DNA of 64,000 nt from Candidatus Uhrbacteria bacterium (lineage in GTDB: Bacteria; Patescibacteriota; Patescibacteriia; GWA2-47-26), in contig JACPJN010000006.1 of NCBI GenBank assembly GCA_016187515.1, forward strand, positions 64,856-128,855, in the 5' to 3' direction. The notes under the pieces were generated by a model. The model did no database searches, was not told the DNA's origin, and worked only from the letters and a program-made list of their open reading frames with translations. Of this stretch, positions 5,156 to 56,672 are shown piece by piece. The translations under genes and the position numbers were made by a program. Each line of letters starts with the position of its first letter. Position 1 is the stretch's first letter.

Positions 5156-5382
5156 AGTTTCTAACTATACCACATTTTCATAAAATTAAAAGAGTCCCCA
5201 ACAGGCACATTGCGCGAAGCGTAAAACAAAACACCCTCGAGTGGTTTGGCTATCAAGGTAAAAGAGTAAGGAGGAGATACTCTAAACCGATTGCCAAACC
5301 GCCCGAAGGCGCTGTTAAGGCGCGGGGTAAACCACCCAAAGGTGCCGCATCGTGTTACGTGCTGCGCGTATCGTGACGGTAT

Positions 5383-5411
5383 ACTCTACCACGTTTCTCA
5401 TCCCCTGTCAA
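5383..5411 (-). promoter_or_regulatory. Putative sigma70-type promoter upstream of the ligase gene: TTGACA-N17-TAGAGT.
   Basis: Minus-strand read ccTTGACAggggatgagaaacgtggTAGAGT, about 230 nt upstream of the ATG at 5155. Confidence 0.3.
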
Positions 5412-5429
5412 GGGCCCCCGTTATCAGAG

Positions 5430-5476
5430 AAGGAAAAATATGGCGCCTGGGAAAGAAGGTTCTCTTCTCTCCCAGG
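5430..5476 (-). terminator. Putative intrinsic terminator downstream of the MopE-like gene.
   Basis: Hairpin cctgggaaagaa-ggttctc-ttctctcccagg, followed on the minus strand by a U-rich tract. Confidence 0.35.
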
Positions 5477-5578
5477 GCGGTGTTCGCGCCTACACGCGAA
5501 ACGTTGAAAGAGCCAATCACGGGCCACGATTGTAGGTTCGTGGAATTTCCCGCGCTTTGTGTTTGTTGTGCTGGCCTG

Positions 5579-7696: not shown

Positions 7697-7743
7697 GAGT
7701 TCCTCCTTGCGCCTACGGCGCATTGTTGTTGCGCCGCAGACGC

Positions 7744-7772
7744 TTTTTAAACGTCTGGGCTGATCTGTCAAT
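7744..7772 (-). promoter_or_regulatory. Putative promoter TTGACA-N17-TAAAAA for the MopE-like gene.
   Basis: Minus-strand ttcaTTGACAgatcagcccagacgtttAAAAAG, followed by leader ...gcaaGGAGGaactcATG. Confidence 0.35.
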
Positions 7773-16922: not shown

Positions 16923-17005
16923 CGGAGGGTGCAGGACTCGAACCTGCAAGGGCTTTCGCCCGCTAGTTTTCAAGACTAGTGCCTTGCCATTCGGCGCAAC
17001 CCTCC
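16923..17005 (-). tRNA. tRNA-Ser (anticodon UGA); no encoded CCA.
   Basis: Manual fold: acceptor GGAGGGT/ACCCTCC; anticodon stem CTAGT/ACTAG with loop CTTGAAA; long variable arm; T-arm CAGGTTCGAGTCCTG. Confidence 0.7.
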
Positions 17006-17006
17006 T

Positions 17007-17096
17007 TGGCGGAAGGGGTGGGATTTGAACCCACGAGCCCCCTTTCGGGGGCAAAGTTTAGCAAACTTTTGCCTTGGACCACTCGGCCACCCTTCC
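17007..17096 (-). tRNA. tRNA-Ser (anticodon GCU), with encoded CCA.
   Basis: Acceptor GGAAGGG/CCCTTCC; anticodon stem AAAGT/ACTTT with loop TTGCTAA; long variable arm GCCCCCGAAAGGGGGC; T-arm GTGGGTTCAAATCCCAC. Confidence 0.7.
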
Positions 17097-31417: not shown

Positions 31418-34400
31418 TCATGGCGCTACAATTATCCGTCCATCAAACACTGTCCATCCGCCTGGGGATTGCGACGCGGGCCGATCAGGGTTCCAAGGAT
31501 GGTTACAGGCCGAATCAATACAACTCCCATTAACCGCCCCGTCAATACCACCGCATATTCCATTGCAATATCCCCAATTATCTTTTATTTGCACTGCCGG
31601 ACGAAACACACAGCATCCGCCGCGCACGCCAGAAGCCGGACAGGTATCAACCCAATTCGGACCCACCCCTCGTTCACAAGTATAGAGAGTTTCAAATTGA
31701 AATGGCTGTCCAATACAGCTGACATTTTCTTGCAAGCCAAAGTTGGTTCCGTCGCATAATGGCGCATGATTTTGGAATAACCCGTCTAATCGCGTGATCT
31801 GTTGGTCATCATCCCAATCAATACTAACCCGCCCAATCGGCATGTGGTCTTTATCAGCAACTCCATAAAATTGTAGTGTGGTTAGTAATGAACCGCGTCT
31901 GGAGATAATATCTCCTTCTATATATTGACCGCCCTCTGCAATTATACGTACATCGGATACTTCCGGTGTCCTTAACCTGCCTTGCATACGGGCATCCCAT
32001 GCTCCTACTACACCTATTCCGGTCTCCACCGCGTCAAATTGACTATATCGCCCCCTGTGAGGTTTTGTATCAGAATTAACCGGTCCCCAGCTAAATCCTT
32101 TAAATGACCGGGCAAATAATTGTTGTATATCTGCTTCCGCGCGTGCTGCATTAGATGGATCCGCGTCAGTTAAGGGCTCTTCCGGTCCCGCTGTAATCCT
32201 ACTACCTGTACCGGGATTAGGTATGGAAGAATTAACTGCGCATTTGTGAATTGAGTGCCCTCCGCCACAAGTGCCCCCTCTTAACTCGCACAGTCGCCTG
32301 GCATTTCCATACGTCCGGCATGTACCTGTAACACCACCAGGCCTATTGGGTGTAAATTCCGCAGTTATACCATCGCTTGCAGAGCTACTGCATGCTGAAC
32401 TCTCTACATTATAAGATGTACCTAGAGGAATTCGCTCCGAAACACAAGTGTGACCGTCATCCGCTCCCCCAACACAGGTGGATGCTTGCAAACTGTAGGA
32501 AGAGGTATGGTTATTATTTAGTGTACTAAATGGCGCGATGGATTCAGCGCAGGAAAATGGCCATCCAGCAAATTCTGAAAGATCGCGGATGCTATCACTG
32601 GCTTCCATTCTGTTCCAATTAAGAAACCATGGATTGTTATTGCCGCTCGTTGGCGGATCATCTTGCGCGGATGAAGATCCAAATGGAGGTAGGCCTGTAT
32701 TGTAATTATAATCCAGGCCATAATTCTCAACTACATGGGTTGTTGATGGCCATAATCTATCTGTCCAAGGCGCGCTGCGCAAAGGATCCACTTTGGTTAT
32801 GTCAGTACATTGCGGATTCAGACGCACTTTAACATCGAAATATACTTCTGCGCTATGTTCATTAGTACACACTGCCAGACGGATGTACTCTAATCGCTGA
32901 TTATCATCAAACCGAAGCAATACTGCTGCGGCATCATAAGCTGAAGCTGGCAGGTCTCTACCGACGATGTCAGTACAATGTATAATATGCTCGGGAATAT
33001 TAACTGAATAATCTCGCAATGCTTCTGCCAATCCTCTTAATGCAGTACTACTCATCCCACACCCGCGGCCAACTCCAGTATCATTGCAATTATCATCAGA
33101 AGCCCACCACCACCAATCTTCGTCCACTTCGGCAAGGGTATTCCAGCTCAGATAATGAATGCCGTCGTCTACGTCGCCTAGAAGGCGACTATCATTGACA
33201 GCATCGTTATTATTGGCCTCAAGATAATAATTTCCATTTAGCGCAGACGCCTTCCAGGGCTCTCCCGCAACCCCCGCAATCTCCACAATGACTCCTTTAA
33301 TATCATACTTACGTATATCATAATCTAATGGCACCTCAAAGGTACGGATGACTGCTTCGTCGCCGCCACTGCGGCGCCTTCCTTGGTCATCTGCACCGGC
33401 TCTAATACGGAACCCATTTGCACCCAAAATTTCCGGGAACCTTATTTCTCGCACCGGTTCATCTGATGCAAGGCACCAATACTGTCCGCCAACGGGGGGT
33501 ATTTGGTAACCGGCTTGGGCAAATTGATTGTTGATATCAACCGCTGCCGCTAGTTGATCAACCGGCCACCAAGTTAGACAAGCGCTGCGGTCTGGATCAT
33601 TGTAAATGCGGGAGTATGGCGCGGTATCTTGCTCAAGACAGTATCCTTGCCAACCGCGTACAATCAAATCCGCTGTCCTTATAGGACCATCATCACGATT
33701 ATCAAGATTACCCGGCGTAGTTTCGCGGGTAATCGGGTAATATCGCACATTGCCAATACCATATTCTGCTTTCTTATAATCACAACCGCATACCCGTATT
33801 CCATCGTCAATCTCGGCAAAAGGTGTTACGCATTTCGGCGCATTGGAAAATGCGGGAGAGTTAATCGTGCCCGTCCGCTCTCCCACTACTCCACTTTTGG
33901 GGAATGGCGAATTAACCTCTGGAAATCCGCGGCACAGCGGCTGCTGAAGAAGTATGGGGGCTGCTTCGGCAGGTGTAGGGGGTGTAAATGCAAGATAATA
34001 ATTCCGCCCCTGAAATTCAGGACTACTCACATCTATTTCTCTTAATTTTTCAAGAGGATATAAATTTGGAATTGCGTATCCAGCGTATTCCGCACCAAAG
34101 AAAGACCGATCGCGTTTTCGGTATATTTCACTGTTCAAAGTCTGCGATTCGCAAATACCTCCCCTTGCAATACATTCTGATGGTGTTATTTGATCTTCAG
34201 CATAAGGATGCGGCGCACATGCTTTAGTTCTATCTATGCCTACAACACAAACTGCTGGTTCCGGATTGATAATCCATCCTCCGCAATTCTGCAAAGTTGG
34301 ACCCCCGCTGGCGGCAGGAAGCGGAATTTTTGCGCAACGTCCAATTCCCAGACAAGCGGTTTTTATTTTCTGATCTTCCGGGGACCAGACCAACTGCGCG

Positions 34401-37400
34401 CGGGTGCACTGCAGCCACTCGGCGCACTCCCTGTCGCGGGCTACTTTAAGCAAAGTGTTGACATTGTTTATAGGTTCGCATATACCTCCCCCCTCCACGC
34501 AAACCGCTTCACCAATGTCTAAATTTCGATCAGCCAGCACAATGCCGCCGGTTGTTGGCAGGCACCACTTGCTGTTATGTGTGCCCCCACGGCATCGCCT
34601 ATCTCTCCTACCTGATTCGGTAACCGGAGGTACCACCGCCCCGCCCTGTCGTTCGCTTTCGTCGTAGGTTGCTTGCGCCGACCAAAGCTCGGCCGGATTT
34701 TCAGTGTTGTCAAACAGCACGCACCCTTCTTTGCGCGAAACCAAACCTCGGCACTCACTCCGGGCAACGGCCAGCCGTTCATTATCTTTACGGTAATAGG
34801 GCTTGCCGTCCGGGTGCTCCGGCGCTGTATCGGTGGGATCCACAAACTCGGCGCAAGTTGACTCGGCTTTTGGACAAAGCCCTACGCGCCGGCCTGCCGC
34901 ATACCCCGCATCCGCATTGCGCCAAATCCCAAAGGTTGATCCGCCGGTAAGATAGTCGTCTATTGGTTCCAAAAAGTTAAACCTTGTGAAAGGGGAAACC
35001 CCTCCATAGCAAGGTGTGTCTGCGACACATATTCCTTCTGTAGATGAAGTCGCCTGCCACTGGCCCCCAATTCCAGCGGTACACTTTTGTTGACACACAC
35101 TACAGGGTGGATTCGCACCTCCCTGGTCACAACTATCACAATTATCAATCCCATAACCACCAGAAAAAATATCCACACGGCGTCCTTCTGCGTCAATGCA
35201 CTTCTTAATAGATTGATTCCAAGTACCATATCCTTCGCATTGCGATTTAGTGGGAGGCGTCAGAAAAGAAGTAGACACCCTTTGCTTCTCCTTTTTAAAC
35301 CACCCTGAAAAGCTGCCAAGTCCAATCCGCACATTTTCCCGCCACTCGCAAAATCCGCCACCGGCTACTTCCGGGTCTTTGAAGTATGACTCGCTGCCAT
35401 TACTGCGCGACCACGCCGCGCAGCCGGTGGCCTCAACCGCGCAAAGATCAGAACCATAACGAGTGGGATCGTTGCGGCGATACACCGCGGCGGTCTCGCC
35501 GGCATTAACCCCCAGCGCTTGGCATCCTTTTTGTTCGGCTTTACAGACAATGTCCGGCCGCACCTCGGGATTGATGACTACATAACGCAAACGATCCGCG
35601 TCAACCGTAACATCGTCTTCCGAATCCGGAGCGGATGCTCCAGTATTAAAGGTCTCTTCAAACGGGGAGACGGTCAGCCGCGTGTCAATCAAACGGCTGC
35701 AGCCAACCGACTCATCCCGACACAGGCGCGAAAACGAACGCAAGTAGGAAGCGCCGCCCGCGCGATCCGTATAACTATTGCATCCGAGCATTGCTCCGCG
35801 CAGCGGTCCTCCGCCGACGGCCGCGGGCAGCTCATCACAAGCCGCGGGAATATCCCAAGTATGTTTGACCAGATATAGCGTATCGGAAACCGCACGCAAA
35901 CGCACCTCATCAATAAAGTAAGTAATGGCGTTTCCGGAAACATTCTTAAAGGTTAGCGCTGCCGGCACATCCGCCAATACCACCGGACCTAAGTCAAAGA
36001 ATTGCCAATCCGGAGTCAGCCGGAGGTTGCCAAAATTTCCGCCGTTAAGCGCCACGTCCACTGAAGAGTTAATCGAACCTTTAACCACCATACTGACAAA
36101 ATAGGTAGCTCCGCCTTCCAGTCCGGCCCCCTCCAGCGCGCGAGAAAGCGTGGAATCATGCGCCGCCCCGCGCACGCGCAGGGACTTATCGCCCACGCGC
36201 AAGGCCTCCGCGGAAAGCTCTGCCCGGCCCCCGTCGGTCCGGGTCCACCGCACTGTTGCATCATCGCCAGCCGGGAAAGTATCATTAAACAGCATGCGCA
36301 CATTGCCGGCCGTATCGCCCTTAAAGCCGCGGCAGCCGGAAACCTGCGGCCGACACGATTTTGATGCCGACGGCGCGCCTAGATAGACGCACTGCAGCGT
36401 AGCCGTATTCCAGAAACCATGGCTGTCTTCACAGGCCAAGCGTTCGAGCGTCGAGCGCAGCGCGCCTGCGGACTCTCCAGCCAGCGCCGGAACTTCCGGA
36501 AGGCGATCCGTCGTAAACCCGGTCCAGCGGTAGACCTGGCACTCGGGGGTGGAAAGAATGGTCTGCGAAATTCTACGGTGAAAAATGTTGCCGTTTTCAT
36601 CGTAGAAAGCCCGACAATCCGCGCGCTCTTCCAAAGACAAGTCCGGATCAGCTGAATTGCAAACCGCTTGATTTTCCTCGCGATCCTCGCAAGTTACGGT
36701 AATGGCCTGCGTGGCCCTCTCCACGCTGACCGCGTAATTGGTACAAGGCGGAACCGCGCGGTCGCGATTATGCTCCACGGCCAAATCCTCGGAATCAGTC
36801 GTATAGAAAATATTGGAAGATTTCAAATTAAAACTGCGCAACTGATACCCGCGCTCGTCCGAACCCTCCCAGGTAAAGTAGGTTTTTGAATCATCGCCGG
36901 GAACGGGCGTCTGGCACGCGCGCAGATCAGTATAATACTCCCGGGCTTCAGTACGCAGATTAGTAAACTCATCACAGCCGGCCTCTGGCGCGGTGCATTT
37001 CGCGGTGCGGCTGGGAATAATCCTGTACATCTGCTCTTCGGCTCTTCCCGCAGGCCAAAGGCCTCCGCGCCCCTCTTCTCCGAGTTCCTGTCTCGTGAAC
37101 GCCGGCTCAAATCGCGAGGACTGCTTGATATAAGTATCATAGCCCACGCAGGATTGCGGACACTCGTCCAGGGCCGTCTTAATTCCCGGAATCGGATCTC
37201 CGCCTAAGGTGGGGGTATACCGCTCACAGCTCGCTTCTTCCGGTCGGCACATACCCGCGTACTGGCCGCATTCGGGTACGTCCGTGCTCTCCCCGGTACA
37301 ACCCAGGTAATCCGGGGGCAAACGGTAATACACATTTTGCTGCGCGCCAACATACGCATGGCCGTCATGGTAGTCAGTCGGCGCAAATCCTTCTTCAAGC

Positions 37401-40372
37401 TGAATGGCATCAACCATCAAACCCGGGGCCAAAGAATCCTGCGCGTGCGCGGGCATGATCAGGCGATCTAAAATGCTTCCACTGCCGGCGGCAATGGTCA
37501 GGTTATTAGGCACTTCAATCCATAATGTTGAAATTCTCAACTGCGCATCGTCTGCGGCAGTAAAGGGCAGCGCAAAACGGCAGGAAAACCGCTCATAGGA
37601 GCCGCTGGCGCGGATGTATTTGGTTATCGTGCTGTCGCCAACCACATCGCAATCACTCGGCTGGCCGCGCATACTTACGCCCGCTGCGTTCAGCCCGGCA
37701 AAAGTTATTTGCAATCGCGGGGGATTGGCCGGTAAATATGCGGTCTGGGGAGTCAATTTCGCGTACAAAGAAACTGTATAAGTTTTTCCGGGCGTTACAT
37801 TTATGGTTTGGTTCATCCGTAATGAGTGGTACGCCGTAACGGCAGGTTGTTGCGGTGAAACTCTGGTTCCCTTTTGGGTTGCCGCGCCTTTTCCCTGCGT
37901 ATCCCGCACAGTACGACCGCCAGTTCCTGCCGGAGATGTGCCGTCAGCACTACCGGAACGCGCATCCCCGGCCCTTATTCCGCTTGGCGCTCTTGGCGGC
38001 GCGGCTTCATCTTCGTCCGTTTCTTGATCTGAAGTGGAAGCGCCTATTCCGGTACCTCTAATACCGCCGGTCGCGCCCTCTTGCACGGCTGCCCCTGTCC
38101 CTGTGTCATCTTTATCGTCAGTTGGTGCAGTGCCTGTACTACCCAACGTAGTGCCGTGCGAACTTGCTATTGTATAATCCGGGATGGCCGCGCTTAGGTC
38201 TGATGAGCTGATAATCAACATTGCTCCTGCGCCATGATAAGCGTCCCCGACCCCGCGCAGGTAAGAGTTGTATGATGGTATTCTAACCCAACCATCCGGA
38301 AATCCGTTGCTATCCGCGTCGTTTTCAAACGATCCATTGTTTATCAAATTAATGGAGGATCCGACGTTGGCAATAAGCTCGGTACATCCTGCTGCGGACG
38401 AATCGCATGCTGGCGCGTCCTGATCCAGGTAAAGGCGCCCGGACACGCCAAGATCCCAGCGCCACTGCCCATCCGTACTACGGCTCTGCCTGGTTAAATA
38501 GCGCGTACATCCGGCGTTGGCGGCATTGCACACTCCAAAATCCACGGTATTTTCCAAAAGCGACACCTCTTGCGGCCGCGCCCCGCCCTCGCCAGTCCCG
38601 CCTTTGCGGAAAGTATCGCACGAGGCATACTGCTCACCGCAATGCTCGCCGCCCAAGCCCCAGATATTTTTCTCCCGCGTGCAGTATCCGGTGGCGCGGC
38701 AGCTGCCGTCTTGGTCAAGCGCTACACAGTGCCGCAAATCCGCGCAGCTCTCTTGCCGCCCGGCGCCCGACAAATCCACCCGCTCGCCCCAAACCAACGC
38801 GTTACACTTGGCTGCCGGAGCTTTAAGTATCCAGTTGGGATCCACTAAACCGCAAAATGGGGATTCATCATCAATGGTGCCATCCGGGCGTTTCCCGCAC
38901 ACTCCATCTGGCCCGGTTTTATTCCACCCGTCAACCACTTCGCGCAAAGTAAAAGTTTGCCCACTTCCGCGGATTTTAAGCGCGGCAAATTCCCAACCCA
39001 CCGGAATAACGCGCAAAAGACGCAATTTTTTCATTGATGAATAAGGGTAACCCTCGGCAACAGTGGGCTCAATGCCTTCTTCCGGATTGATAAATCCAAA
39101 CGGCTTGGCGCCATCCAGTAGTCCATTGCGCGGATCCATCGCCTGCGCCACCGTGAACGGCTGTCCATCCGGACCGCCTTGCAAGGCCAGCATAAACTTA
39201 TCGTCAATGGTGCAATTAAATTGACTGGCGACGCGGGGATTAGCCGGACAGGCATTCAGCTCGGTCAAATATTCAAACGTGCCTTGGGGAGTGCGTATTG
39301 CTCCCGCGGCGGAAATCAGCCCGATCGCGCTTGATGAAAGACCAGCCGTGCCTTCCTGGGTGGGATCGCGAAACGTTCCGCCGCCAACCAGCGACCGCAG
39401 GTCCGGCGGCTGAAACGGCGCGCCTGGCCCAAAAATACCCTGCAGAGCAAGTCGGAGCATTCGAGAAATCAAGGTGTTGGTAAAAGTAGCCAGAACAGTG
39501 GTCCCCACCGCGGCCCAAACCTGGCCGCTCCCTAACGTCGCTCCCACAATCGCACCTACCTCCGGGGTTTGGTTTTCTCCCTGTTCGGTAATGTTTTCAA
39601 AATTTTTCCTGATCACGACCGAGGGAGTAGTAATATTGCCGGAAATCGGACTGATCTGCGGGCGAATTCCTTGTCCTTCTTCGCGTTCTTTCTCGGCGGC
39701 CTTCTCATCTCTGGCGATTTTGATGCGAAATTGTTCATGCGCGAGAAATGCCTGGCCAAAGTCGGTTTGCTTAGTATCAAAACCTAACGACACGTGGCGC
39801 AGAAGAGCGTTGGGATCTTGTACTTCGCGCACTAAATTCTGCCAATTATTGATTGTGCCGACAAAATCGCAGCGCGGAGTAGGCGGCTGGATTTCGGAAA
39901 TTAGTCCCAGTTGGATAGCCAGCCCAATATCGGGAAGGCGCGGATTGCAAAGATCAAAGCCCAGCTCGGCCCAGGGCTCGGCCAGGGTCCCGATAAATTC
40001 GCCGGCCGCGGCATAGAGCTTGGAAGTCAGATAAGTGCCGAAGGAGTCGCGAAACGCGCAAGCATTCTGACCGCGGCAGCCCGAAGCCAGCCCCACGGCT
40101 AAATCATAGGCAATCTGCTGGCCAAACAGCGTAATCGCGTTAATCAGTCCGACCGTGGCAGAAGCAATAATCGCTTGGCCAAAACCTAGGCGCACCTCGC
40201 GCTGAACTTCGATTGTCTCCAGCGCCGGGGCGCTGACCACCAGTTGCGCGCGCGCGCCTTGTGGAGTTCCCAACGCGCTTACCGCAAACACAAACGTAAA
40301 ACAGAAAAGCACGACACTGCCAATAATTTTCTGCCGCTTGATTGAATTTCTTTCAGATCCGCTAGGCGCCAT
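31418..40372 (-). CDS. Giant (2984 aa) secreted Cys-rich surface protein with CBM-like domains and a Gly/Thr-rich linker; likely an adhesin.
   Basis: Signal peptide MAPSGSERNSIKRQKIIGSVVLFCFTFVFAVSALGTPQGARAQ. NGSFEND...GFPDGW and TVRWTRTDGG...SLRV segments typical of carbohydrate-binding modules. The C-terminus carries the module that is duplicated downstream. Confidence 0.7.
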   Translation of the reverse strand: MAPSGSERNSIKRQKIIGSVVLFCFTFVFAVSALGTPQGARAQLVVSAPALETIEVQREVRLGFGQAIIASATVGLINAITLFGQQIAYDLAVGLASGCRGQNACAFRDSFGTYLTSKLYAAAGEFIGTLAEPWAELGFDLCNPRLPDIGLAIQLGLISEIQPPTPRCDFVGTINNWQNLVREVQDPNALLRHVSLGFDTKQTDFGQAFLAHEQFRIKIARDEKAAEKEREEGQGIRPQISPISGNITTPSVVIRKNFENITEQGENQTPEVGAIVGATLGSGQVWAAVGTTVLATFTNTLISRMLRLALQGIFGPGAPFQPPDLRSLVGGGTFRDPTQEGTAGLSSSAIGLISAAGAIRTPQGTFEYLTELNACPANPRVASQFNCTIDDKFMLALQGGPDGQPFTVAQAMDPRNGLLDGAKPFGFINPEEGIEPTVAEGYPYSSMKKLRLLRVIPVGWEFAALKIRGSGQTFTLREVVDGWNKTGPDGVCGKRPDGTIDDESPFCGLVDPNWILKAPAAKCNALVWGERVDLSGAGRQESCADLRHCVALDQDGSCRATGYCTREKNIWGLGGEHCGEQYASCDTFRKGGTGEGGARPQEVSLLENTVDFGVCNAANAGCTRYLTRQSRSTDGQWRWDLGVSGRLYLDQDAPACDSSAAGCTELIANVGSSINLINNGSFENDADSNGFPDGWVRIPSYNSYLRGVGDAYHGAGAMLIISSSDLSAAIPDYTIASSHGTTLGSTGTAPTDDKDDTGTGAAVQEGATGGIRGTGIGASTSDQETDEDEAAPPRAPSGIRAGDARSGSADGTSPAGTGGRTVRDTQGKGAATQKGTRVSPQQPAVTAYHSLRMNQTINVTPGKTYTVSLYAKLTPQTAYLPANPPRLQITFAGLNAAGVSMRGQPSDCDVVGDSTITKYIRASGSYERFSCRFALPFTAADDAQLRISTLWIEVPNNLTIAAGSGSILDRLIMPAHAQDSLAPGLMVDAIQLEEGFAPTDYHDGHAYVGAQQNVYYRLPPDYLGCTGESTDVPECGQYAGMCRPEEASCERYTPTLGGDPIPGIKTALDECPQSCVGYDTYIKQSSRFEPAFTRQELGEEGRGGLWPAGRAEEQMYRIIPSRTAKCTAPEAGCDEFTNLRTEAREYYTDLRACQTPVPGDDSKTYFTWEGSDERGYQLRSFNLKSSNIFYTTDSEDLAVEHNRDRAVPPCTNYAVSVERATQAITVTCEDREENQAVCNSADPDLSLEERADCRAFYDENGNIFHRRISQTILSTPECQVYRWTGFTTDRLPEVPALAGESAGALRSTLERLACEDSHGFWNTATLQCVYLGAPSASKSCRPQVSGCRGFKGDTAGNVRMLFNDTFPAGDDATVRWTRTDGGRAELSAEALRVGDKSLRVRGAAHDSTLSRALEGAGLEGGATYFVSMVVKGSINSSVDVALNGGNFGNLRLTPDWQFFDLGPVVLADVPAALTFKNVSGNAITYFIDEVRLRAVSDTLYLVKHTWDIPAACDELPAAVGGGPLRGAMLGCNSYTDRAGGASYLRSFSRLCRDESVGCSRLIDTRLTVSPFEETFNTGASAPDSEDDVTVDADRLRYVVINPEVRPDIVCKAEQKGCQALGVNAGETAAVYRRNDPTRYGSDLCAVEATGCAAWSRSNGSESYFKDPEVAGGGFCEWRENVRIGLGSFSGWFKKEKQRVSTSFLTPPTKSQCEGYGTWNQSIKKCIDAEGRRVDIFSGGYGIDNCDSCDQGGANPPCSVCQQKCTAGIGGQWQATSSTEGICVADTPCYGGVSPFTRFNFLEPIDDYLTGGSTFGIWRNADAGYAAGRRVGLCPKAESTCAEFVDPTDTAPEHPDGKPYYRKDNERLAVARSECRGLVSRKEGCVLFDNTENPAELWSAQATYDESERQGGAVVPPVTESGRRDRRCRGGTHNSKWCLPTTGGIVLADRNLDIGEAVCVEGGGICEPINNVNTLLKVARDRECAEWLQCTRAQLVWSPEDQKIKTACLGIGRCAKIPLPAASGGPTLQNCGGWIINPEPAVCVVGIDRTKACAPHPYAEDQITPSECIARGGICESQTLNSEIYRKRDRSFFGAEYAGYAIPNLYPLEKLREIDVSSPEFQGRNYYLAFTPPTPAEAAPILLQQPLCRGFPEVNSPFPKSGVVGERTGTINSPAFSNAPKCVTPFAEIDDGIRVCGCDYKKAEYGIGNVRYYPITRETTPGNLDNRDDGPIRTADLIVRGWQGYCLEQDTAPYSRIYNDPDRSACLTWWPVDQLAAAVDINNQFAQAGYQIPPVGGQYWCLASDEPVREIRFPEILGANGFRIRAGADDQGRRRSGGDEAVIRTFEVPLDYDIRKYDIKGVIVEIAGVAGEPWKASALNGNYYLEANNNDAVNDSRLLGDVDDGIHYLSWNTLAEVDEDWWWWASDDNCNDTGVGRGCGMSSTALRGLAEALRDYSVNIPEHIIHCTDIVGRDLPASAYDAAAVLLRFDDNQRLEYIRLAVCTNEHSAEVYFDVKVRLNPQCTDITKVDPLRSAPWTDRLWPSTTHVVENYGLDYNYNTGLPPFGSSSAQDDPPTSGNNNPWFLNWNRMEASDSIRDLSEFAGWPFSCAESIAPFSTLNNNHTSSYSLQASTCVGGADDGHTCVSERIPLGTSYNVESSACSSSASDGITAEFTPNRPGGVTGTCRTYGNARRLCELRGGTCGGGHSIHKCAVNSSIPNPGTGSRITAGPEEPLTDADPSNAARAEADIQQLFARSFKGFSWGPVNSDTKPHRGRYSQFDAVETGIGVVGAWDARMQGRLRTPEVSDVRIIAEGGQYIEGDIISRRGSLLTTLQFYGVADKDHMPIGRVSIDWDDDQQITRLDGLFQNHAPLCDGTNFGLQENVSCIGQPFQFETLYTCERGVGPNWVDTCPASGVRGGCCVFRPAVQIKDNWGYCNGICGGIDGAVNGSCIDSACNHPWNPDRPASQSPGGWTVFDGRIIVAP

Positions 40373-51128: not shown

Positions 51129-52400
51129 TCAGGCGCTTGATTTACTTGTCTCGCTTGATTCACTAGATACTTCCCCCGGCGTGGCCGCCGGTTCACCGGG
51201 CGGCAGGGTTCCTTCCTCCGGAGTTAAAGTTGTAATTGGCGCGCCGCCTTCTCCTAAGATATTAATCTTCCAGCCGGTAAGTTTGGAGGCCAGCCGGACA
51301 TTCTGGCCGGCGCGCCCGATCGCCAAAGACAGCTCCTCGGCAAGGACGGTAACGTTGGCCGTTTTTGTCTCCTCGTCAAAAGCAACTTTTTTTACCTTGG
51401 CCGGCGCCAGTGAAGCAGCGATGAATTTATCCGCGTCCTCGCTCCATTGTACCACATCAATCTTCTCCCCGCCTATCTCGGCGATAATCGTCTGGATCCG
51501 GCCGCCGCGCTGGCCAATGCAAGAACCGATCGGGTCAATGTTTTCATCATGGGAGACCACCGCGATTTTCGAGCGAGCCCCGGCCTCGCGAGCCACCCCT
51601 TTCACCTCCACCACCCCGCTTTGCACTTCCGGAATTTCCAGACGAAAAAGTTCGGCGACCATCGCCGGATCAGTCCGCGAAAGCACGATCTCCGGCCCTT
51701 TTGAACCCATCGCGACGGATTTTACATAAAACTTCATCCGCTCCCCGGCGCGATACGACTCTCGTTCAATCTGTTCGCCCAAAGGCAAAATCGCGGAGGT
51801 TCTTCCAAAATCAACCAGCTGCAGCCGCCCTTCCTGTCTTCCCAAAATACCGGTAACAATCGTGCCGCCCTTGCCGGACCATTCCTCAAAAATGGTCTGC
51901 CGCTCGGCCTCGCGCAGCCGCTGGGTAATCACCTGCTTGGCGGTCTGCGCCGCCATGCGTCCGAAAGCGTGGGGGATTTCCAGCTCGATTCGAAGCTCCT
52001 CTCCCAATTCAGCATTGGGCTTAATCGCGCGCGCCTCGGAAACCATCAGCATGGTTTTGGGGTTAAACTTTTCCTCGACTAACCCGCCTGAATTTTCCTG
52101 CTCCGCGCCAGGCACGCCAGCCGAAGGCACTGCAGGAAAATTCTGTGCGGGCTCCTCTTCTTTTTTCTTTTGTGCCTCCAATTCCTCTTCGCTAAAATCC
52201 CGCACCACGATCTTTACGTCAAAAGCGCGCATGGCTCCGGTCTCCGGATCAAACTCCACTTTAATATTCTGATTTTTGTGGCCAAAATCTTTGCGATAGG
52301 CCGCGGCCAGCGCGGCTTCCACCGTTTGCAGGACTTGCTCATGCGCCAGTCCTTTTTCCTCGCAGATTTGTTTAATTGCTTGAACTATTGGAGATGCCAT
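51129..52400 (-). CDS. nusA: Transcription termination/antitermination factor NusA.
   Basis: S1 and KH domains (GSCIGQRGGRIQ...), acidic C-terminus; start ATG at 52400. Confidence 0.85.
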   Translation of the reverse strand: MASPIVQAIKQICEEKGLAHEQVLQTVEAALAAAYRKDFGHKNQNIKVEFDPETGAMRAFDVKIVVRDFSEEELEAQKKKEEEPAQNFPAVPSAGVPGAEQENSGGLVEEKFNPKTMLMVSEARAIKPNAELGEELRIELEIPHAFGRMAAQTAKQVITQRLREAERQTIFEEWSGKGGTIVTGILGRQEGRLQLVDFGRTSAILPLGEQIERESYRAGERMKFYVKSVAMGSKGPEIVLSRTDPAMVAELFRLEIPEVQSGVVEVKGVAREAGARSKIAVVSHDENIDPIGSCIGQRGGRIQTIIAEIGGEKIDVVQWSEDADKFIAASLAPAKVKKVAFDEETKTANVTVLAEELSLAIGRAGQNVRLASKLTGWKINILGEGGAPITTLTPEEGTLPPGEPAATPGEVSSESSETSKSSA

Positions 52401-52500
52401 ACAAAGCACGGAACTTATGCGGAACTTTAGCAGAATATATACGGAATCCGTATAGGTTCCGTTGTAGTTCAGTGTGCGTTCCGCGGTTATTAAAAAACCA
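52401..52500 (-). promoter_or_regulatory. Copy of the 90-bp CGGAAC/GTTCCG element directly upstream of the nusA ATG.
   Basis: cggaacttatgcggaac...gttccgttgtagttcagtgtgcgttccg. Confidence 0.45.
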
Positions 52501-52655
52501 GTTCCCTATCAGGAACTAGTCCAGTGTGGATATACTATCACACCTTATAAATCCTGTCAAATCAGCCAAGCAACTCCTTCACCATTTTGCCGACCACCGG
52601 CCCCTCCGCGGCGCCTTTAAGTTCTTTCATTGCCGCGCCCATGAGTTTACCAAAG

Positions 52656-53081
52656 TTATTGTTTCAGTGTGACTTCAATCTCTTCCTGTTGATGATTTAA
52701 AGTAACTTTAAACTGATCAAAGAAACCAACTTGCCCAAGAATACCATAACCATCAGCCGGGATATCCCGAGAAAATCCGCAATACAATTGGTACGAATAT
52801 TCTCCCACCGTTGCAGTGATCGTATGGAAATACGCGTGCATACCGCCACCGCCTACGCCTCTAAATTCTGCTTCCTTGCCCTGCTCCACTTCAAGCCCAA
52901 GCAGTTCACCCACCAAACTATGGAATATACAGAAATCCGCTCCGGAATCTATAAGCGCTTTGTATCGTCTCTCTGTGCCTTGGTGCTCAAGTGTGATGAG
53001 AATAATCGGACGCAACGAAACGAAACTATTGGGAAATGCAGGACACGGCGCGACTTGCACACGCTCATAGAAAAATCTCAT
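52656..53081 (-). CDS. Retropepsin-like (clan AA) aspartic peptidase.
   Basis: ALIDSGADFCIF (DSGA catalytic motif). Confidence 0.55.
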   Translation of the reverse strand: MRFFYERVQVAPCPAFPNSFVSLRPIILITLEHQGTERRYKALIDSGADFCIFHSLVGELLGLEVEQGKEAEFRGVGGGGMHAYFHTITATVGEYSYQLYCGFSRDIPADGYGILGQVGFFDQFKVTLNHQQEEIEVTLKQ

Positions 53082-53098
53082 ACACGGGTCTCGCGCAC

Positions 53099-53284
53099 TT
53101 AACCAATAAAAAATCCCGCATGTGCCGGAACGTGGTAGAGAATGGGGCGCTCTACTTTCTTTTGGGCCTCCTCAAATACCTTTTTCCCATCTTCACCGGC
53201 AGCAACCACCTTATTCTCCTCGGTAAGCGCAACCCAAAGTCCGGGATATTTGCGATAAATTTCAGTCATGTCAATGGCTGGCAT
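53099..53284 (-). CDS. Small hypothetical protein (61 aa), possibly DUF5678-like.
   Basis: Within the islet; weak family resemblance only. Confidence 0.3.
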   Translation of the reverse strand: MPAIDMTEIYRKYPGLWVALTEENKVVAAGEDGKKVFEEAQKKVERPILYHVPAHAGFFIG

Positions 53285-53307
53285 ATATGCTTTATTGCAG
53301 TGGCTAT

Positions 53308-53547
53308 TTATCTTCCGTATTTTTCTATTAAAACGTCCAGATCACCACCACATTCATCTTTGAATTTAAGCCAAATTTCATCGCCCTTGCCTAAATTGGG
53401 CACGACTCTGTCATATACTTCAGGGCCTCTTTGGAGAATACGCCTTAACAATATTAAGTTACCTGGAAGACCGTCATATCTGTCCAGTATATCTTGCTGA
53501 TAATCTTTTGGTTTTTCGGGCCTGCTGCCCCGACTTTCGGGTTTCAT
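53308..53547 (-). CDS. Small hypothetical protein (79 aa).
   Basis: Within the islet. Confidence 0.3.
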   Translation of the reverse strand: MKPESRGSRPEKPKDYQQDILDRYDGLPGNLILLRRILQRGPEVYDRVVPNLGKGDEIWLKFKDECGGDLDVLIEKYGR

Positions 53548-53578
53548 AATAGTATTTAAGTTAGTATACCATGTATTA

Positions 53579-54046
53579 TTAAAATATCAACATCTCCTTC
53601 ACTATCCGACTTACCACCGTCCCATCCGCGCCACCTTTAAGTTCTTTCATTGCCGCGCCCATGACGCGGCCAAAATCGGCCGGTCCCACACTGCCCATGC
53701 CGGAGATCACGCGCTTGACCGCCGCGCGCACTTTTTCTTCATCCATCATTGCCGGCAGATATTTTTTCAGCACGTTGAGTTCCGCGTCGTTCTGCTCTTT
53801 TAAATCCGCCCGGCCGCCTTGGACAAAAAGTTCACCGGCCTCTTCCAATTGTTTAACTTGCCGCTTCACGATGGCTAGCGCTTCCTCCTCGGTAAGCTTG
53901 GCTTCGCGGTCGCCGGATTTTCCGCGTTTTTCAATCTCGGCATTTTGAAACGCGGTCTTCAGCAACCGCAACACTTCCGTGGCGGTCCTTTGACCGCCGC
54001 GGAATGCGGCTTTATATTCATCTTCGATACGCTGCGCAAGCGGCAT
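53579..54046 (-). CDS. yqeY: GatB/YqeY domain protein.
   Basis: MPLAQRIEDEYKAAFRGG...; typical size. Confidence 0.75.
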   Translation of the reverse strand: MPLAQRIEDEYKAAFRGGQRTATEVLRLLKTAFQNAEIEKRGKSGDREAKLTEEEALAIVKRQVKQLEEAGELFVQGGRADLKEQNDAELNVLKKYLPAMMDEEKVRAAVKRVISGMGSVGPADFGRVMGAAMKELKGGADGTVVSRIVKEMLIF

Positions 54047-56597: not shown

Positions 56598-56672
56598 TGG
56601 TGGGCGATGCTGGGATCGAACCAGCGACCTTTCCGATGTGAACGGAACGCTCTACCACTGAGCTAATCGCCC
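56598..56672 (-). tRNA. tRNA-Val (anticodon CAC), with encoded CCA.
   Basis: GGGCGATTAGCTCAGTGGTAGAGCG...; anticodon loop TTCACAT; T-arm GGTTCGATCC. Confidence 0.7.

What the first reader, a model, noticed from the sequence alone, without database searches (positions are those of the whole stretch)
52571..53664. Integrase-less islet inserted into the yqeY 3' end with target-end duplication
A ~0.9 kb AT-rich segment separates nusA from yqeY. It carries a retropepsin-like aspartic peptidase (DSGA motif) and two tiny ORFs. It is bounded by 74-bp direct repeats that are diverged copies of the last 27 codons of yqeY, and the distal copy still reads as an in-frame YqeY C-terminus followed by a stop. 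Duplicating or replacing the target gene's 3' end is how integrative elements preserve the target gene, but no integrase is present.
Basis: seen in the sequence. Interest (0 to 1): 0.7.

Follow-up and report, generated by a model that had tools for sequence, protein, structure and literature searches.

The report
Recombinase-free gene cassette inserted into yqeY
A 1-kb, three-gene cassette with no integrase of its own has been spliced into the end of the housekeeping gene yqeY of a Candidatus Uhrbacteria (CPR) bacterium, bringing a foreign replacement gene end. Its core gene pair (a small DUF5678 protein plus a retroviral-type aspartic protease) is flanked in many other genomes by duplications of whatever gene end it landed in.

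Summary

**Repeat and insert.** Two 74-nt direct repeats (84% identical, with a 31-nt exact core) bracket 946 nt of AT-rich DNA (43% GC against 54% for the window). All of it lies on the minus strand, between yqeY and nusA.

**Empty site.** The closest relative (L003) has yqeY followed by nusA 82 nt later. The window's distal copy and its downstream nusA promoter match that native arrangement.

**Foreign gene end.** The tail now fused to yqeY is foreign. It is 86% identical to the yqeY tail of a different Uhrbacterium (L173), whose gene body is only 66% identical.

**Cargo.**
- a promoter whose -35 box lies in the new last codons of yqeY
- a 79-aa protein from a small uncharacterised family
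- a DUF5678 protein
- a retropepsin-fold protease

**Family pattern.**
- The DUF5678-protease pair is adjacent in 85 of 88 loci; in the other three the protease is at the contig edge.
- It sits in many different chromosomal contexts.
- It is flanked by duplicated target sequence in 25% of loci, against 0.8% of control positions.
- No recombinase was seen inside or beside the pair in any locus examined.

**Mechanism and classification.** The most likely mechanism is a single crossover in the 31-nt core between the host tail and a captured tail carried by a circular cassette. This matches "insertion with long target duplication", previously described for restriction-modification systems, but with a new cargo.

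The parts
53579..54046 (-). yqeY (GatB/YqeY-domain protein, 155 aa). It is a chimera: host sequence runs up to the core, and a foreign tail follows it.
   Evidence: Pfam YqeY E = 1e-37. It is 100% identical to an NCBI Candidatus Uhrbacteria protein (P0001).
53591..53664 (-). Proximal direct repeat, the 3' end of yqeY now in use. The part after the core (53579-53633) encodes GGADGTVVSRIVKEMLIF* and is of foreign origin.
   Evidence: The post-core tail matches L173 at 36/42 nt, including a 24-nt identical run (read from the aligned sequences), but matches the closest relative L003 at only 29/42.
53634..53664 (.). 31-nt exact core, proximal copy. This is the inferred crossover region.
   Evidence: two exact copies in the window, 0.00 expected in shuffles.
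53563..53590 (-). Cassette promoter, TTGATA-16 nt-TGgTATACT. The -35 box is formed by the new last codons of yqeY (..ATG TTG ATA TTT TAA).
   Evidence: 10 of 12 consensus matches, with an extended -10. It resembles the TTGACA/TAnAnT promoter that lies about 8-10 nt upstream of the DUF5678 start codon in L084, L088, L089, L090 and L091.
53308..53547 (-). 79-aa ORF, an extra passenger gene. It belongs to a small uncharacterised family (motif GNPGA..VL..G.EVY..VAPNLG.G.EIW.KY.DEC..DLD.LIEKY).
   Evidence: The word-based search found only itself. Exhaustive HMMER found 28 homologues at E < 1e-3, aligned as A3. There is no Pfam or PDB match. It is not linked to the pair in any other locus.
53099..53284 (-). 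DUF5678 protein, 61 aa, the upstream partner of the protease.
   Evidence: Pfam PF18929 E = 4.4e-12. It lies immediately upstream of the protease in 85 of 88 loci. The model is alpha-beta-beta-alpha-beta with a floppy C-terminal tail, pLDDT 84.9. It has no PDB fold match.
52656..53081 (-). Retropepsin-like aspartic peptidase, 141 aa, with catalytic DSGA at residues 45-48.
   Evidence: DSGADF and GILGQxGFFD are invariant in alignment A2. The AlphaFold model has pLDDT 94.8. Foldseek matches HIV-1 protease, Rickettsia APRc and Ddi1. The PDB sequence profile hits only retropepsin-type protease domains: retroviral proteases and Ddi1-type proteins. DSGA is present in 87 of 88 homologues.
52562..52654 (-). 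Distal, displaced copy of the yqeY 3' end. It reads FGKLMGAAMKELKGAAEGPVVGKMVKELLG* and starts directly after the protease stop codon. The part after the core is the original host tail.
   Evidence: The post-core part matches L003 at 35/42 nt, the same level as the gene body (84%).
52614..52644 (.). 31-nt exact core, distal copy.
52532..52560 (-). Native nusA promoter, TTGACA-17 nt-TAGTAT. The insertion left it intact, and it is conserved in the empty-site relative.
   Evidence: and the L003 sequence.
52489..52522 (-). nusA leader hairpin followed by a U-tract (terminator-like). It is host DNA downstream of the insertion.
   Evidence: The same hairpin and U-run are present in L003.
51129..52400 (-). 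nusA, the downstream neighbour, undisturbed.
   Evidence: Pfam NusA_N and KH_5. Logan unitig L002 starts in the core and runs through nusA.

Best explanation
What it is. The islet is a small mobile gene cassette of about 1,020 bp that encodes no recombinase. On the minus strand it reads: promoter, 79-aa gene, DUF5678 gene, retropepsin-like protease gene. The protease stop codon is followed directly by an 88-nt piece of a yqeY 3' end.

How it inserted.
- Shown: relative to the closest relative, the cassette is inserted at the 3' end of yqeY.
- Shown: the yqeY tail now in use is foreign, and the original tail plus the nusA promoter are displaced downstream intact.
- Shown: both switch points fall in the same 31-nt stretch of identity.
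- Inferred: the cassette entered as a circle (or tandem multimer) carrying a yqeY tail captured in an earlier host resembling L173.
- Inferred: it integrated by one reciprocal crossover in that 31-nt stretch. The host's homologous recombination machinery most likely did this after DNA uptake, rather than a dedicated integrase.
- Consequence: because the captured tail ends in-frame and merges into the cassette promoter, yqeY stays functional, nusA keeps its own promoter and leader, and the cassette is expressed.
- Inferred: recombination between the two repeats would excise the circle precisely and let the cycle repeat.

What the cargo does.
- Shown: the core cargo is a strictly paired, translationally coupled DUF5678 plus aspartic protease operon.
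- Inferred: it is a selfish addiction-like or defence-like module. The protease would be the effector and DUF5678 its inhibitor or partner, and this would favour retention of the cassette once inserted.
For: - Repeat and core.
- Empty site with matching native tail and nusA promoter in L003.
- Polarity of the chimera: the distal post-core tail matches L003 at 35/42 nt, which equals the body identity of 84%. The proximal post-core tail matches L173 at 36/42, although the bodies are only 66% identical.
- Foreign composition: (cassette GC is below flank GC in 8 of 8 loci).
- No room for a lost integrase: ORFs fill 852 of 946 nt.
- A second cassette at the same place in a more distant Uhrbacterium: L090 has rpsU-yqeY-DUF5678-protease, and a yqeY-tail copy again begins right after the protease stop.
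- The intermediate relatives L003, L004, L172 and L173 are empty.
- The close protease homologues sit in at least 8 different contexts.
- The pair is adjacent in 85 of 88 loci.
- Flanking direct repeats occur in 18 of 71 loci against 4 of 532 control positions. The repeats are unrelated to each other and are copies of local target sequence: rplL 3' end, ROK kinase 5' end, M16 peptidase 5' end, and the yqeY 3' end.
- In L151 both rplL tail copies still encode plausible L12 C-termini that differ by two synonymous changes and one conservative change. That looks like two alleles rather than one decayed duplicate.
- The cassette promoter is conserved.
- Precedent: PMC2853133 describes insertion with long target duplication without mobility genes, with repeats often spanning the start or stop of the target gene, mostly in naturally competent species.
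- Protease fold and conserved catalytic motif.
Against: - No circular or tandem junction, and no excision product, has been observed.
- A 31-nt identity is at the lower limit for RecA-type recombination (from general knowledge of minimal homology lengths).
- Competence and recA were not checked in this genome.
- The L003 empty site could be a precise secondary loss through the repeats rather than a never-occupied site.
- The match of the proximal tail to L173 rests on 42 nt of a conserved region. Other tails score 28-31 of 42.
- Some flanking repeats in other loci (L106, L118) are multi-copy intergenic motifs, not target duplications.
- About three quarters of loci show no repeat.
- There is no experimental or profile evidence that the pair is a toxin-antitoxin or defence system. 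The only signals are weak PADLOC hits at E about 5e-4. DUF5678 has no known antitoxin fold.
Confidence: 0.55

Rival explanations
1. Integration and excision are catalysed in trans by a site-specific recombinase encoded elsewhere in the genome or on a helper element. The cassette would then be a non-autonomous element, like a cis-mobilisable element (CIME), an integron cassette or a Xer-dependent element, and the 31-nt core would be its attachment site.
For: Two diverged repeats sharing an exact core, with the target gene's 3' end restored, is the classic att geometry. Two cassettes in different lineages share the same junction, with the protease stop followed by yqeY from the D/N-F-G codons. 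This fits a fixed attachment site carried by the element. Only 64 kb of a 355-kb contig could be inspected.
Against: Across the family the flanking repeats are unrelated sequences taken from whatever target was hit: rplL, ROK kinase, M16 peptidase, yqeY and intergenic hairpins. There is therefore no common recognition site. The core has no dif-like or attC-like palindrome (read from the sequence; the repeat finder found no inverted repeat there). No recombinase domain lies within 10 kb on either side, and no recombinase motif was found in the window. None was found in L106 either.
Confidence: 0.2
2. The islet is the decayed remnant of a larger integrase-bearing integrative element that targeted the yqeY 3' end. 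Internal deletions removed the integrase and most of the cargo.
For: The target-end replacement and att-like repeats are what such elements leave behind. CPR genomes are streamlined, so deletions are plausible (general knowledge).
Against: The repeats abut the cassette promoter on one side and the protease stop codon on the other, with no pseudogene space. L090 shows the same minimal unit at the same site. At least 13 independent loci have repeats tightly bracketing just the two-gene pair at different targets, and none has an integrase inside. Identical decay that many times is implausible.
Confidence: 0.1
3. The insertion is ancient and vertically inherited from the common ancestor of the window lineage and L090. 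The empty sites are later precise deletions through the repeats, and the identical core is maintained by gene conversion.
For: The window and L090 share the same site and the same junction. Recombination between the repeats would regenerate exactly the L003-type tail (inference).
Against: - It needs at least four independent precise losses (L003, L004, L172, L173) against one or two gains.
- The displaced tail is still an intact in-frame YqeY C-terminus. It differs from the L003 tail mainly by synonymous or conservative changes.
- Cassette GC3 (35-45%) has not moved toward the host value of about 60%.
- The proximal tail resembles a different lineage, L173.
Confidence: 0.1
4. The structure is an assembly artefact. 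A repeat-induced misjoin would have placed an unrelated or free circular 1-kb element between yqeY and nusA.
For: In the Logan assemblies the region is split exactly at the 31-mer core into separate unitigs, L001 (52615-53663) and L002. The k = 31 graph alone therefore cannot tell the integrated form from an empty site plus a free circle.
Against: The NCBI contig of 355,817 bp carries YqeY, the protease and the 79-aa protein on a single contig of that length. Sequencing reads are longer than the 31-nt core (inference, not checked). The unitig break at an exact 31-mer is expected behaviour for a real repeat. The same architecture recurs in independent samples and loci (L090, L151-L156, L139, L164).
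Confidence: 0.03

Closest known systems
Insertion with long target duplication of restriction-modification gene complexes (Nobusato et al. 2000; Furuta, Abe & Kobayashi 2010, PMC2853133)
   Same: A small selfish gene unit with no mobility gene is flanked by long direct repeats (tens to hundreds of bp) that are a duplication of unique target sequence. The repeats often span the stop or start of the target gene, so the gene stays intact. An empty site exists in a related genome, the insert has low GC, and repeats are enriched relative to ordinary genes.
   Different: The cargo is not a restriction-modification system and has no nuclease. The proposed link to double-strand breakage therefore does not apply. 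Here the two copies are demonstrably chimeric, one native and one foreign, which points to a captured target fragment and a single crossover. The hosts are uncultured CPR bacteria.
Cis-mobilisable elements (CIMEs) and other integrase-less islands flanked by att sites, such as the Streptococcus thermophilus fda 3'-end elements (recalled from memory, not checked here)
   Same: No integrase is present. The element is flanked by direct repeats that include the 3' end of a housekeeping gene, and the target gene is preserved.
   Different: CIMEs derive from, and depend on, a cognate integrative conjugative element integrase with a fixed att core. No such integrase or family-wide core was found here.
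Integrase-mediated islands and prophages that replace the 3' end of tRNA, tmRNA or protein genes
   Same: The element carries a replacement 3' end, the original end is displaced distally, and there is an identical core with diverged flanks.
   Different: The defining integrase is absent. The element is only about 1 kb, and related cassettes use many unrelated targets.
Integron gene cassettes
   Same: Both are tiny mobile units (about 0.7-1 kb) of one to three genes without their own recombinase. Some loci show arrays of small cassettes separated by a repeat (L106 with five copies, L164 with three).
   Different: There is no intI, no attI and no palindromic attC. The cassettes carry their own promoter. 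The repeats are copies of host gene ends.
Bacterial and eukaryotic retropepsin-like proteases (Rickettsia APRc, Ddi1 RVP domain, retroviral proteases)
   Same: The fold and the D-S-G-A catalytic motif are shared.
   Different: This is a stand-alone soluble 141-aa protein, always encoded just downstream of a DUF5678 gene. It scores below the Pfam and NCBIfam family thresholds. Its substrate and role are unknown.

Membership tests
Insertion with long target duplication (criteria of Furuta et al. 2010, PMC2853133) | Direct repeats longer than 30 bp flank the insert and are a duplication of a sequence that is single-copy at the empty site. | tested here: met
   There are 74-nt repeats (about 90 nt at the protein level). 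L003 has a single copy.
Insertion with long target duplication (criteria of Furuta et al. 2010, PMC2853133) | The insert is shorter than 20 kb and contains no mobility-related gene. | tested here: met
   The insert is 946 nt between the repeats. It holds three ORFs: DUF5678, a retropepsin-like protease and an unknown 79-aa protein.
Insertion with long target duplication (criteria of Furuta et al. 2010, PMC2853133) | A related genome has an empty site whose flanks align on both sides. | tested here: met
   In L003 the yqeY tail, the intergenic promoter and the start of nusA all align with the window's distal copy and flank.
Insertion with long target duplication (criteria of Furuta et al. 2010, PMC2853133) | The cargo is a restriction-modification system (as the class was originally defined). 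| tested here: not met
   The cargo has no methyltransferase or nuclease domain.
Integrase-mediated integrative element (island or prophage) at a gene 3' end | The element encodes a tyrosine or serine integrase. | tested here: not met
   There is no such domain in the three ORFs, and no non-coding space for a pseudogene.
Integrase-mediated integrative element (island or prophage) at a gene 3' end | attL and attR share a core, and the element supplies a replacement 3' end. | tested here: met
   There is a 31-nt exact core. The proximal tail is foreign and the distal tail is native.
Non-autonomous element mobilised by a recombinase in trans (CIME, integron cassette, Xer-dependent element) | Family members share a conserved recombination site (att core, attC palindrome or dif-like site). 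| tested here: not met
   The flanking repeats in different loci are unrelated target sequences. No palindrome is present in the core (and the sequence itself).
Non-autonomous element mobilised by a recombinase in trans (CIME, integron cassette, Xer-dependent element) | A cognate recombinase is present in the same genome. | tested here: inconclusive
   None was found within 10 kb on either side. The whole 64-kb window was screened only with a crude motif search. The rest of the genome was not available.
Type II toxin-antitoxin module | Two small, co-oriented, tightly coupled genes have their own promoter, a patchy distribution and variable genomic contexts. | tested here: met
   The pair is adjacent in 85 of 88 loci, with gaps mostly between -4 and +27 nt. 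The promoter is conserved. The closest homologues occupy at least 8 contexts.
Type II toxin-antitoxin module | The components belong to known toxin or antitoxin families or folds. | tested here: not met
   There is no NCBIfam or PHROGs match and only weak PADLOC candidate hits. The DUF5678 model matches no PDB fold.
Type II toxin-antitoxin module | The toxin arrests growth and the partner neutralises it. | not testable with these tools
   This needs expression experiments.
Clan AA retropepsin-like aspartic peptidase | A D-[ST]-G-A catalytic motif sits within a retropepsin fold. | tested here: met
   DSGADF is invariant in A2. DSGA is present in 87 of 88 homologues. The pLDDT 94.8 model matches HIV-1 protease, APRc and Ddi1.
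Clan AA retropepsin-like aspartic peptidase | The protein scores above a curated family threshold (Pfam RVP, Asp_protease_2). | tested here: not met
   It scores 18.8-18.9 bits against cut-offs of 20.7 and 24.3, and has no NCBIfam match. It is a divergent subfamily.
Clan AA retropepsin-like aspartic peptidase | The protein forms a homodimer with proteolytic activity. | not testable with these tools
   Only a monomer model was made.
Pfam DUF5678 (PF18929) | The protein scores above the gathering threshold. | tested here: met
   It scores 46.1 bits against a cut-off of 23.2, E = 4.4e-12.

The most novel reading that the evidence does not exclude
The DUF5678-retropepsin pair would define a previously unrecognised class of recombinase-free mobile cassette in CPR bacteria. 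On excision, such a cassette captures the end of the host gene it sits beside. It then uses that conserved fragment as an address label to re-enter the same gene in other lineages through the host's own recombination. A protease-based addiction or abortive-infection activity, in which DUF5678 restrains the protease, would keep the cassette in place. This would give a concrete mechanism for the unexplained phenomenon of insertion with long target duplication, and a new protease-effector toxin-antitoxin or defence type.
Probability: 0.3. Interest if true: 0.8.

Novelty: new variant of a known kind. Interest (0 to 1): 0.6.

Why it matters
- It shows how a housekeeping operon in a streamlined CPR genome can acquire accessory genes without any integrase and without damaging either neighbouring gene.
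- Insertion with long target duplication was described for restriction-modification systems, and Furuta et al. (2010, PMC2853133) left its mechanism open. This case extends it to a nuclease-free cargo.
- The native-plus-foreign chimera of the two repeat copies is direct sequence evidence for a captured-homology, single-crossover route. That route can be tested by read mapping and by simple genetics.
- The work flags a widespread gene pair, with at least 447 relatives in JGI metagenomes. The pair is unstudied: the paper library holds no prokaryotic work on DUF5678 and nothing linking retropepsin-like proteases to toxin-antitoxin systems.
- The pair behaves like a selfish module and is a candidate new protease-based addiction or defence system.

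Tried and rejected
**Profile and structure searches**
- NCBIfam and PHROGs profiles gave nothing for the three ORFs.
- PADLOC gave only weak hits of the protease to the candidate systems PDC-M52B and PDC-M08B, and nothing for the small proteins.
- The 79-aa family has no Pfam or PDB match, apart from two members with marginal NB-ARC hits.
- The DUF5678 family has no PDB sequence homologue, and its model has no fold match.

**Other searches**
- Rfam found no RNA family in 52300-53750.
- The window holds no tRNA at or near the site; the nearest is tRNA-Val at 56598-56672.
- The protease has no relatives in the plasmid or phage collections. One IMG/VR contig (L171) carries the pair, but its neighbours gave only HTH and sigma-factor hits.
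- The literature search found no prokaryotic work on DUF5678 and nothing linking retropepsin-like proteases to toxin-antitoxin systems.
- The GTDB species-representative scan with YqeY gave only one Uhrbacteria locus, and none with nusA adjacent. It therefore added little beyond one more empty site, L004.

**Ideas considered and dropped**
- A Xer/dif-type or attC-type recombination site: the core is not palindromic and is not shared with other loci.
- A tRNA fragment as the duplicated target in L140: ARAGORN did not confirm it.
- The yqeY downstream region of L173 as a second duplication case: other small ORFs are inserted there, but there is no repeat.
- The high tail identity of L090 to the window (25 of 30 aa) as evidence of shared origin: YqeY tails are generally more conserved than bodies, so it is not informative.

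**Not done**
- A full Pfam scan of all 55 window ORFs for recombinases was not run. Only the 10 kb on either side and a crude motif search were done.
Full report
**Observation**

The window comes from a Candidatus Uhrbacteria (CPR/Patescibacteria) contig. Its YqeY, protease and 79-aa proteins are 100% identical to NCBI proteins encoded on a 355,817-bp contig. All relevant genes are on the minus strand. In transcription order they are:
- hisS, rpsU, yqeY (53579-54046)
- a 79-aa ORF (53308-53547)
- a 61-aa ORF (53099-53284)
- a 141-aa ORF (52656-53081)
- nusA (51129-52400) and yidC

The repeat finder reports a 74-nt direct repeat at 52571-52644 and 53591-53664. It is 84% identical and spaced 1020 nt apart. 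Its 31-nt core is identical in both copies, unique to these two places in the window, and never seen in shuffles. The distal copy translates in frame as FGKLMGAAMKELKGAAEGPVVGKMVKELLG followed by a stop. The real YqeY ends FGRVMGAAMKELKGGADGTVVSRIVKEMLIF. The DNA between the repeats is 43.3% GC, against 54.0% for the window. That is lower than 99.7% of equal-sized windows. Third-position GC is 35-45%, against about 60% in nusA and yqeY and 57% in rpsU.

**Empty site and polarity**

The closest YqeY relative in the protein database (P0002, 82% identity) lies on a Logan contig, L003. There the yqeY stop codon is followed 82 nt later by the nusA start, with no islet.

The L003 tail (..GAADGMVVGKMVKELIG*) and the sequence after its stop (TGATTTGACAGGATTTAC.GGGTGTGATAGTATAT) align with the window's distal copy and the DNA after it. 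That DNA is a sigma-70-like promoter, TTGACA-17-TAGTAT, for nusA.

Codon-register comparison of the 42 nt after the core gives:
- The distal copy is closest to L003 (35/42). This equals the identity of the gene bodies (84%).
- The proximal copy, the one fused to yqeY, is closest to the yqeY tail of another Uhrbacterium, L173 (36/42). The aligned sequences share a 24-nt identical run, although the bodies are only 66% identical.
- The proximal copy matches L003 at only 29/42.

The distal copy is therefore the original host end. The tail in use came in with the insert, and both switch points lie inside the same 31-nt identity.

The last codons of the new tail (ATG TTG ATA TTT TAA) supply the -35 box of a promoter, TTGATA-16-TGgTATACT. 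This promoter resembles the one that sits directly upstream of DUF5678 in related cassettes.

**Cargo**

- **Protease (141 aa).** Sequence hits to retroviral protease families are only sub-threshold. It belongs to a conserved family with invariant DSGADF and GILGQxGFFD motifs. An AlphaFold model has pLDDT 94.8. It matches HIV-1 protease, the Rickettsia retropepsin-like APRc and Ddi1 RVP domains. A profile search of PDB sequences returns only retropepsin-type protease domains: retroviral proteases and Ddi1-type proteins. DSGA is present in 87 of 88 homologues.
- **DUF5678 (61 aa).** It matches the Pfam family at E = 4e-12. The single-sequence model (pLDDT 84.9) is a small alpha-beta-beta-alpha-beta unit with a flexible C-terminal tail. 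It matches no solved fold.
- **79-aa protein.** A word-based search found only itself. Exhaustive HMMER found 28 homologues with a conserved motif of about 65 residues. It matches no Pfam or PDB family. It is not found next to the pair anywhere else, so it is an extra passenger placed between the cassette promoter and DUF5678.

**The pair is a mobile unit**

A JGI metagenome scan found at least 447 relatives of the protease. Eighty of those loci, one viral-contig locus and seven contigs recovered by exact-protein look-up give 88 loci. A DUF5678 ORF lies immediately upstream of the protease in 85 of them. In the other three the protease is at the contig edge. The gap is mostly -4 to +27 nt.

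The closest homologues (66-75% identity, Uhrbacteria) each sit in a different, tightly packed housekeeping context:
- yqeY | nusA (the window)
- after yqeY (L090)
- epimerase | glycosyltransferase
- diacylglycerol kinase | ftsA
- a membrane protein | unknown
- a 637-aa gene | L32
- unknown | GT2 glycosyltransferase
- unknown | FtsW

Cassette GC is below flank GC in 8 of 8 loci.

L090 is the most telling. It reads rpsU-yqeY-138 nt-DUF5678-protease. Directly after the protease stop the contig ends with GATTTTAGAAAAGTTATGAA, the start of a second yqeY tail (D-F-x-K-V-M). That is the same junction as in the window. Its YqeY is only 59% identical to the window's. The lineages of intermediate distance (L003, L004, L172, L173) lack the cassette.

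**Flanking duplications across the family**

I searched for direct repeats between the 400 nt upstream of DUF5678 and the 200 nt downstream of the protease. Repeats scoring at least 14 were found in 18 of 71 testable loci. The figure was 4 of 532 for same-length pseudo-modules placed elsewhere in the same contigs. After collapsing near-identical loci, about 13 independent cases remain.

The repeats are 15-71 nt long and 83-100% identical. The downstream copy begins a few to about 130 nt after the protease stop. They share no sequence with each other. They are copies of the local target:
- the 3' end of rplL (L151-L156)
- the 5' end of a ROK kinase gene (L139)
- the 5' end of an M16 peptidase gene, in three copies bracketing two different cassettes (L164)
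- a site between rplE and rpsN, inside the ribosomal protein operon and next to a MazE-like gene (L163)
- intergenic hairpins (L099, L126)

In L151 the two rplL tails encode ..EAAGGKVELK* and ..EAAGAKVELK*. They differ by two synonymous changes and one conservative change. As in the window, this looks like two alleles rather than a decayed duplicate.

Some repeats are multi-copy intergenic motifs rather than target duplications. L106 has five copies separating small cassettes beside a SIR2-like gene. L118 has a motif that looks like a -10 box plus ribosome-binding site. No recombinase was found in any inspected locus.

**Mechanism**

Three facts are shown:
- There is an insertion relative to an empty site.
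- The two repeat copies are reciprocal native/foreign chimeras.
- Both exchange points lie in one 31-nt identity.

This is the product expected from a single reciprocal crossover between the host yqeY tail and a yqeY tail carried on a circular or tandem incoming molecule of 1,020 bp. A double crossover from a linear donor fragment would need both exchanges inside the same 31 nt, which is unlikely.

Family members use unrelated targets and share no end motif, and no recombinase is linked to them. I therefore infer that the host's homologous recombination does the joining. The homology segment would be a piece of the previous host's gene end, captured when the cassette left that genome. Recombination between the flanking repeats would regenerate the circle and a clean empty site.

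CPR bacteria are widely thought to take up DNA. This comes from general knowledge and was not tested here. The competence bias noted for the restriction-modification cases in PMC2853133 fits.

The insertion is neutral by design:
- yqeY receives an in-frame tail.
- nusA keeps its promoter and its leader hairpin with U-tract, which L003 also has.
- The cassette brings its own promoter.

I infer the cargo to be a selfish addiction-like or defence-like operon, with the protease as effector and DUF5678 as its partner. The grounds are:
- strict pairing and translational coupling
- small size and an own promoter
- a patchy, mobile distribution
- strong conservation of the catalytic motif
- neighbours such as MazE-like and SIR2-like genes
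- weak PADLOC candidate hits

No direct evidence for toxicity or defence exists.

**Rival explanations**

- **A recombinase acting in trans** cannot be excluded from 64 kb of sequence. It is disfavoured by the lack of any shared site.
- **A decayed integrase-bearing island** is disfavoured because the repeats abut the promoter and the stop codon, and the same minimal unit recurs at many targets.
- **Ancient vertical inheritance with repeated precise loss** needs at least four losses. It does not explain the L173-like tail, the intact displaced tail or the unameliorated composition.
- **An assembly artefact** is unlikely but not formally excluded. The Logan k = 31 unitigs break exactly at the core (L001 = 52615-53663). 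Only reads or larger k-mers resolve the path, as they evidently did for the NCBI contig.

**Comparison with what is known**

The structure meets the published criteria for insertion with long target duplication (Furuta, Abe and Kobayashi 2010, PMC2853133; first described by Nobusato et al. 2000). Those criteria are:
- repeats longer than 30 bp that are a duplication of unique target sequence
- an insert shorter than 20 kb
- no mobility gene
- an empty site in a relative

The repeats also span a gene end, as is common in that class. The class was defined for restriction-modification systems. Those authors left its mechanism open and tentatively linked it to double-strand breakage. The cargo here has no nuclease.

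It is not an integrase-type island, because the defining gene is absent. It is not an integron cassette, because there is no attC or intI. It is not a Xer-dependent element, because there is no dif-like site. The paper library held no prokaryotic work on DUF5678 and nothing linking this gene pair to mobility or to toxin-antitoxin systems.

**Verdict**

It is a new variant of a known kind of rearrangement. It carries an uncharacterised and apparently highly mobile gene pair. The chimeric repeat copies give unusually direct evidence for how such recombinase-free insertions may arise.

Noticed in passing
window 52401-52535 (minus strand), between the nusA promoter and the nusA start: The nusA leader begins with a strong hairpin followed by a U-tract (52489-52522). 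The same feature is present in the relative L003. The window alone then has a second long hairpin (about 52401-52485). The whole leader folds far better than shuffles (z = -5.9). This could be a transcription attenuator for nusA.
   Followed up: partly
window 53308-53547; proteins P0135-P0162: The 79-aa protein belongs to a small unannotated family with a conserved motif of about 65 residues. The motif also occurs 6-8 times within three very large proteins: P0141 (655 aa), P0149 (1569 aa) and P0161 (3485 aa). Two members give marginal NB-ARC hits.
   Followed up: partly
L106 3307-6480: Five copies of a 24-30-nt repeat (AGTGGACGAYGTTAGAACTG..) separate a run of small cassettes: a methyltransferase, an overlapping 132-aa plus 60-aa pair, a 71-aa ORF, and the DUF5678-protease pair. 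A SIR2-like gene lies beside them. No integrase is in the 12-kb locus. The layout resembles an integron array without integron parts.
   Followed up: partly
L163 5720-6600: The DUF5678-protease pair plus a MazE-like antitoxin ORF sit inside the ribosomal protein operon, between rplE (L5) and rpsN (S14). They are bracketed by a perfect 27-nt direct repeat.
   Followed up: partly
L164 4684-6391: Three copies of the first 61-64 nt of an M16 peptidase gene bracket two different cassettes, a 195-aa ORF and the DUF5678-protease pair. This suggests repeated use of one entry site.
   Followed up: partly
L173 580-1830 compared with L172 3300-3407: The region just downstream of yqeY varies among Uhrbacteria. 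L173 carries a 131-aa ORF, an overlapping 66-aa cysteine-rich ORF and a NUDIX gene there. L172 goes straight to a large T4SS_pilin-like gene. No flanking repeat was found.
   Followed up: partly
L090 849-975: A 15-nt inverted repeat (CCCCGCGCCTTAAGG / CCTTAAGGCGCGGGG) links the extended yqeY C-terminal codons with the region just upstream of the cassette promoter (seen in the sequence).
   Followed up: no
L001 and L002 (Logan unitigs equal to window 52615-53663 and the nusA region): The exact islet unitig is recorded in 15 sequencing runs, while the adjoining nusA unitig is recorded in 2. This may only reflect strain SNPs that break unitigs. It could also mean the cassette is more widespread than this host strain.
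   Followed up: no
L171 (IMG/VR contig IMGVR_UViG_3300029268_002474): One predicted viral contig carries the DUF5678-protease pair at its end. Its neighbours gave only HTH and sigma-70 region 4 hits.
   Followed up: partly
window 31418-40372 and 16923-17096: There is a single 2,984-aa ORF on the minus strand and two adjacent tRNA-Ser genes only one base apart. Neither was examined.
   Followed up: no
window 5291-7771: Two long ORFs overlap on opposite strands, 819 aa on the plus strand and 730 aa on the minus strand. The plus-strand translation is Arg/Ala-rich and looks spurious. The region was not examined further.
   Followed up: no
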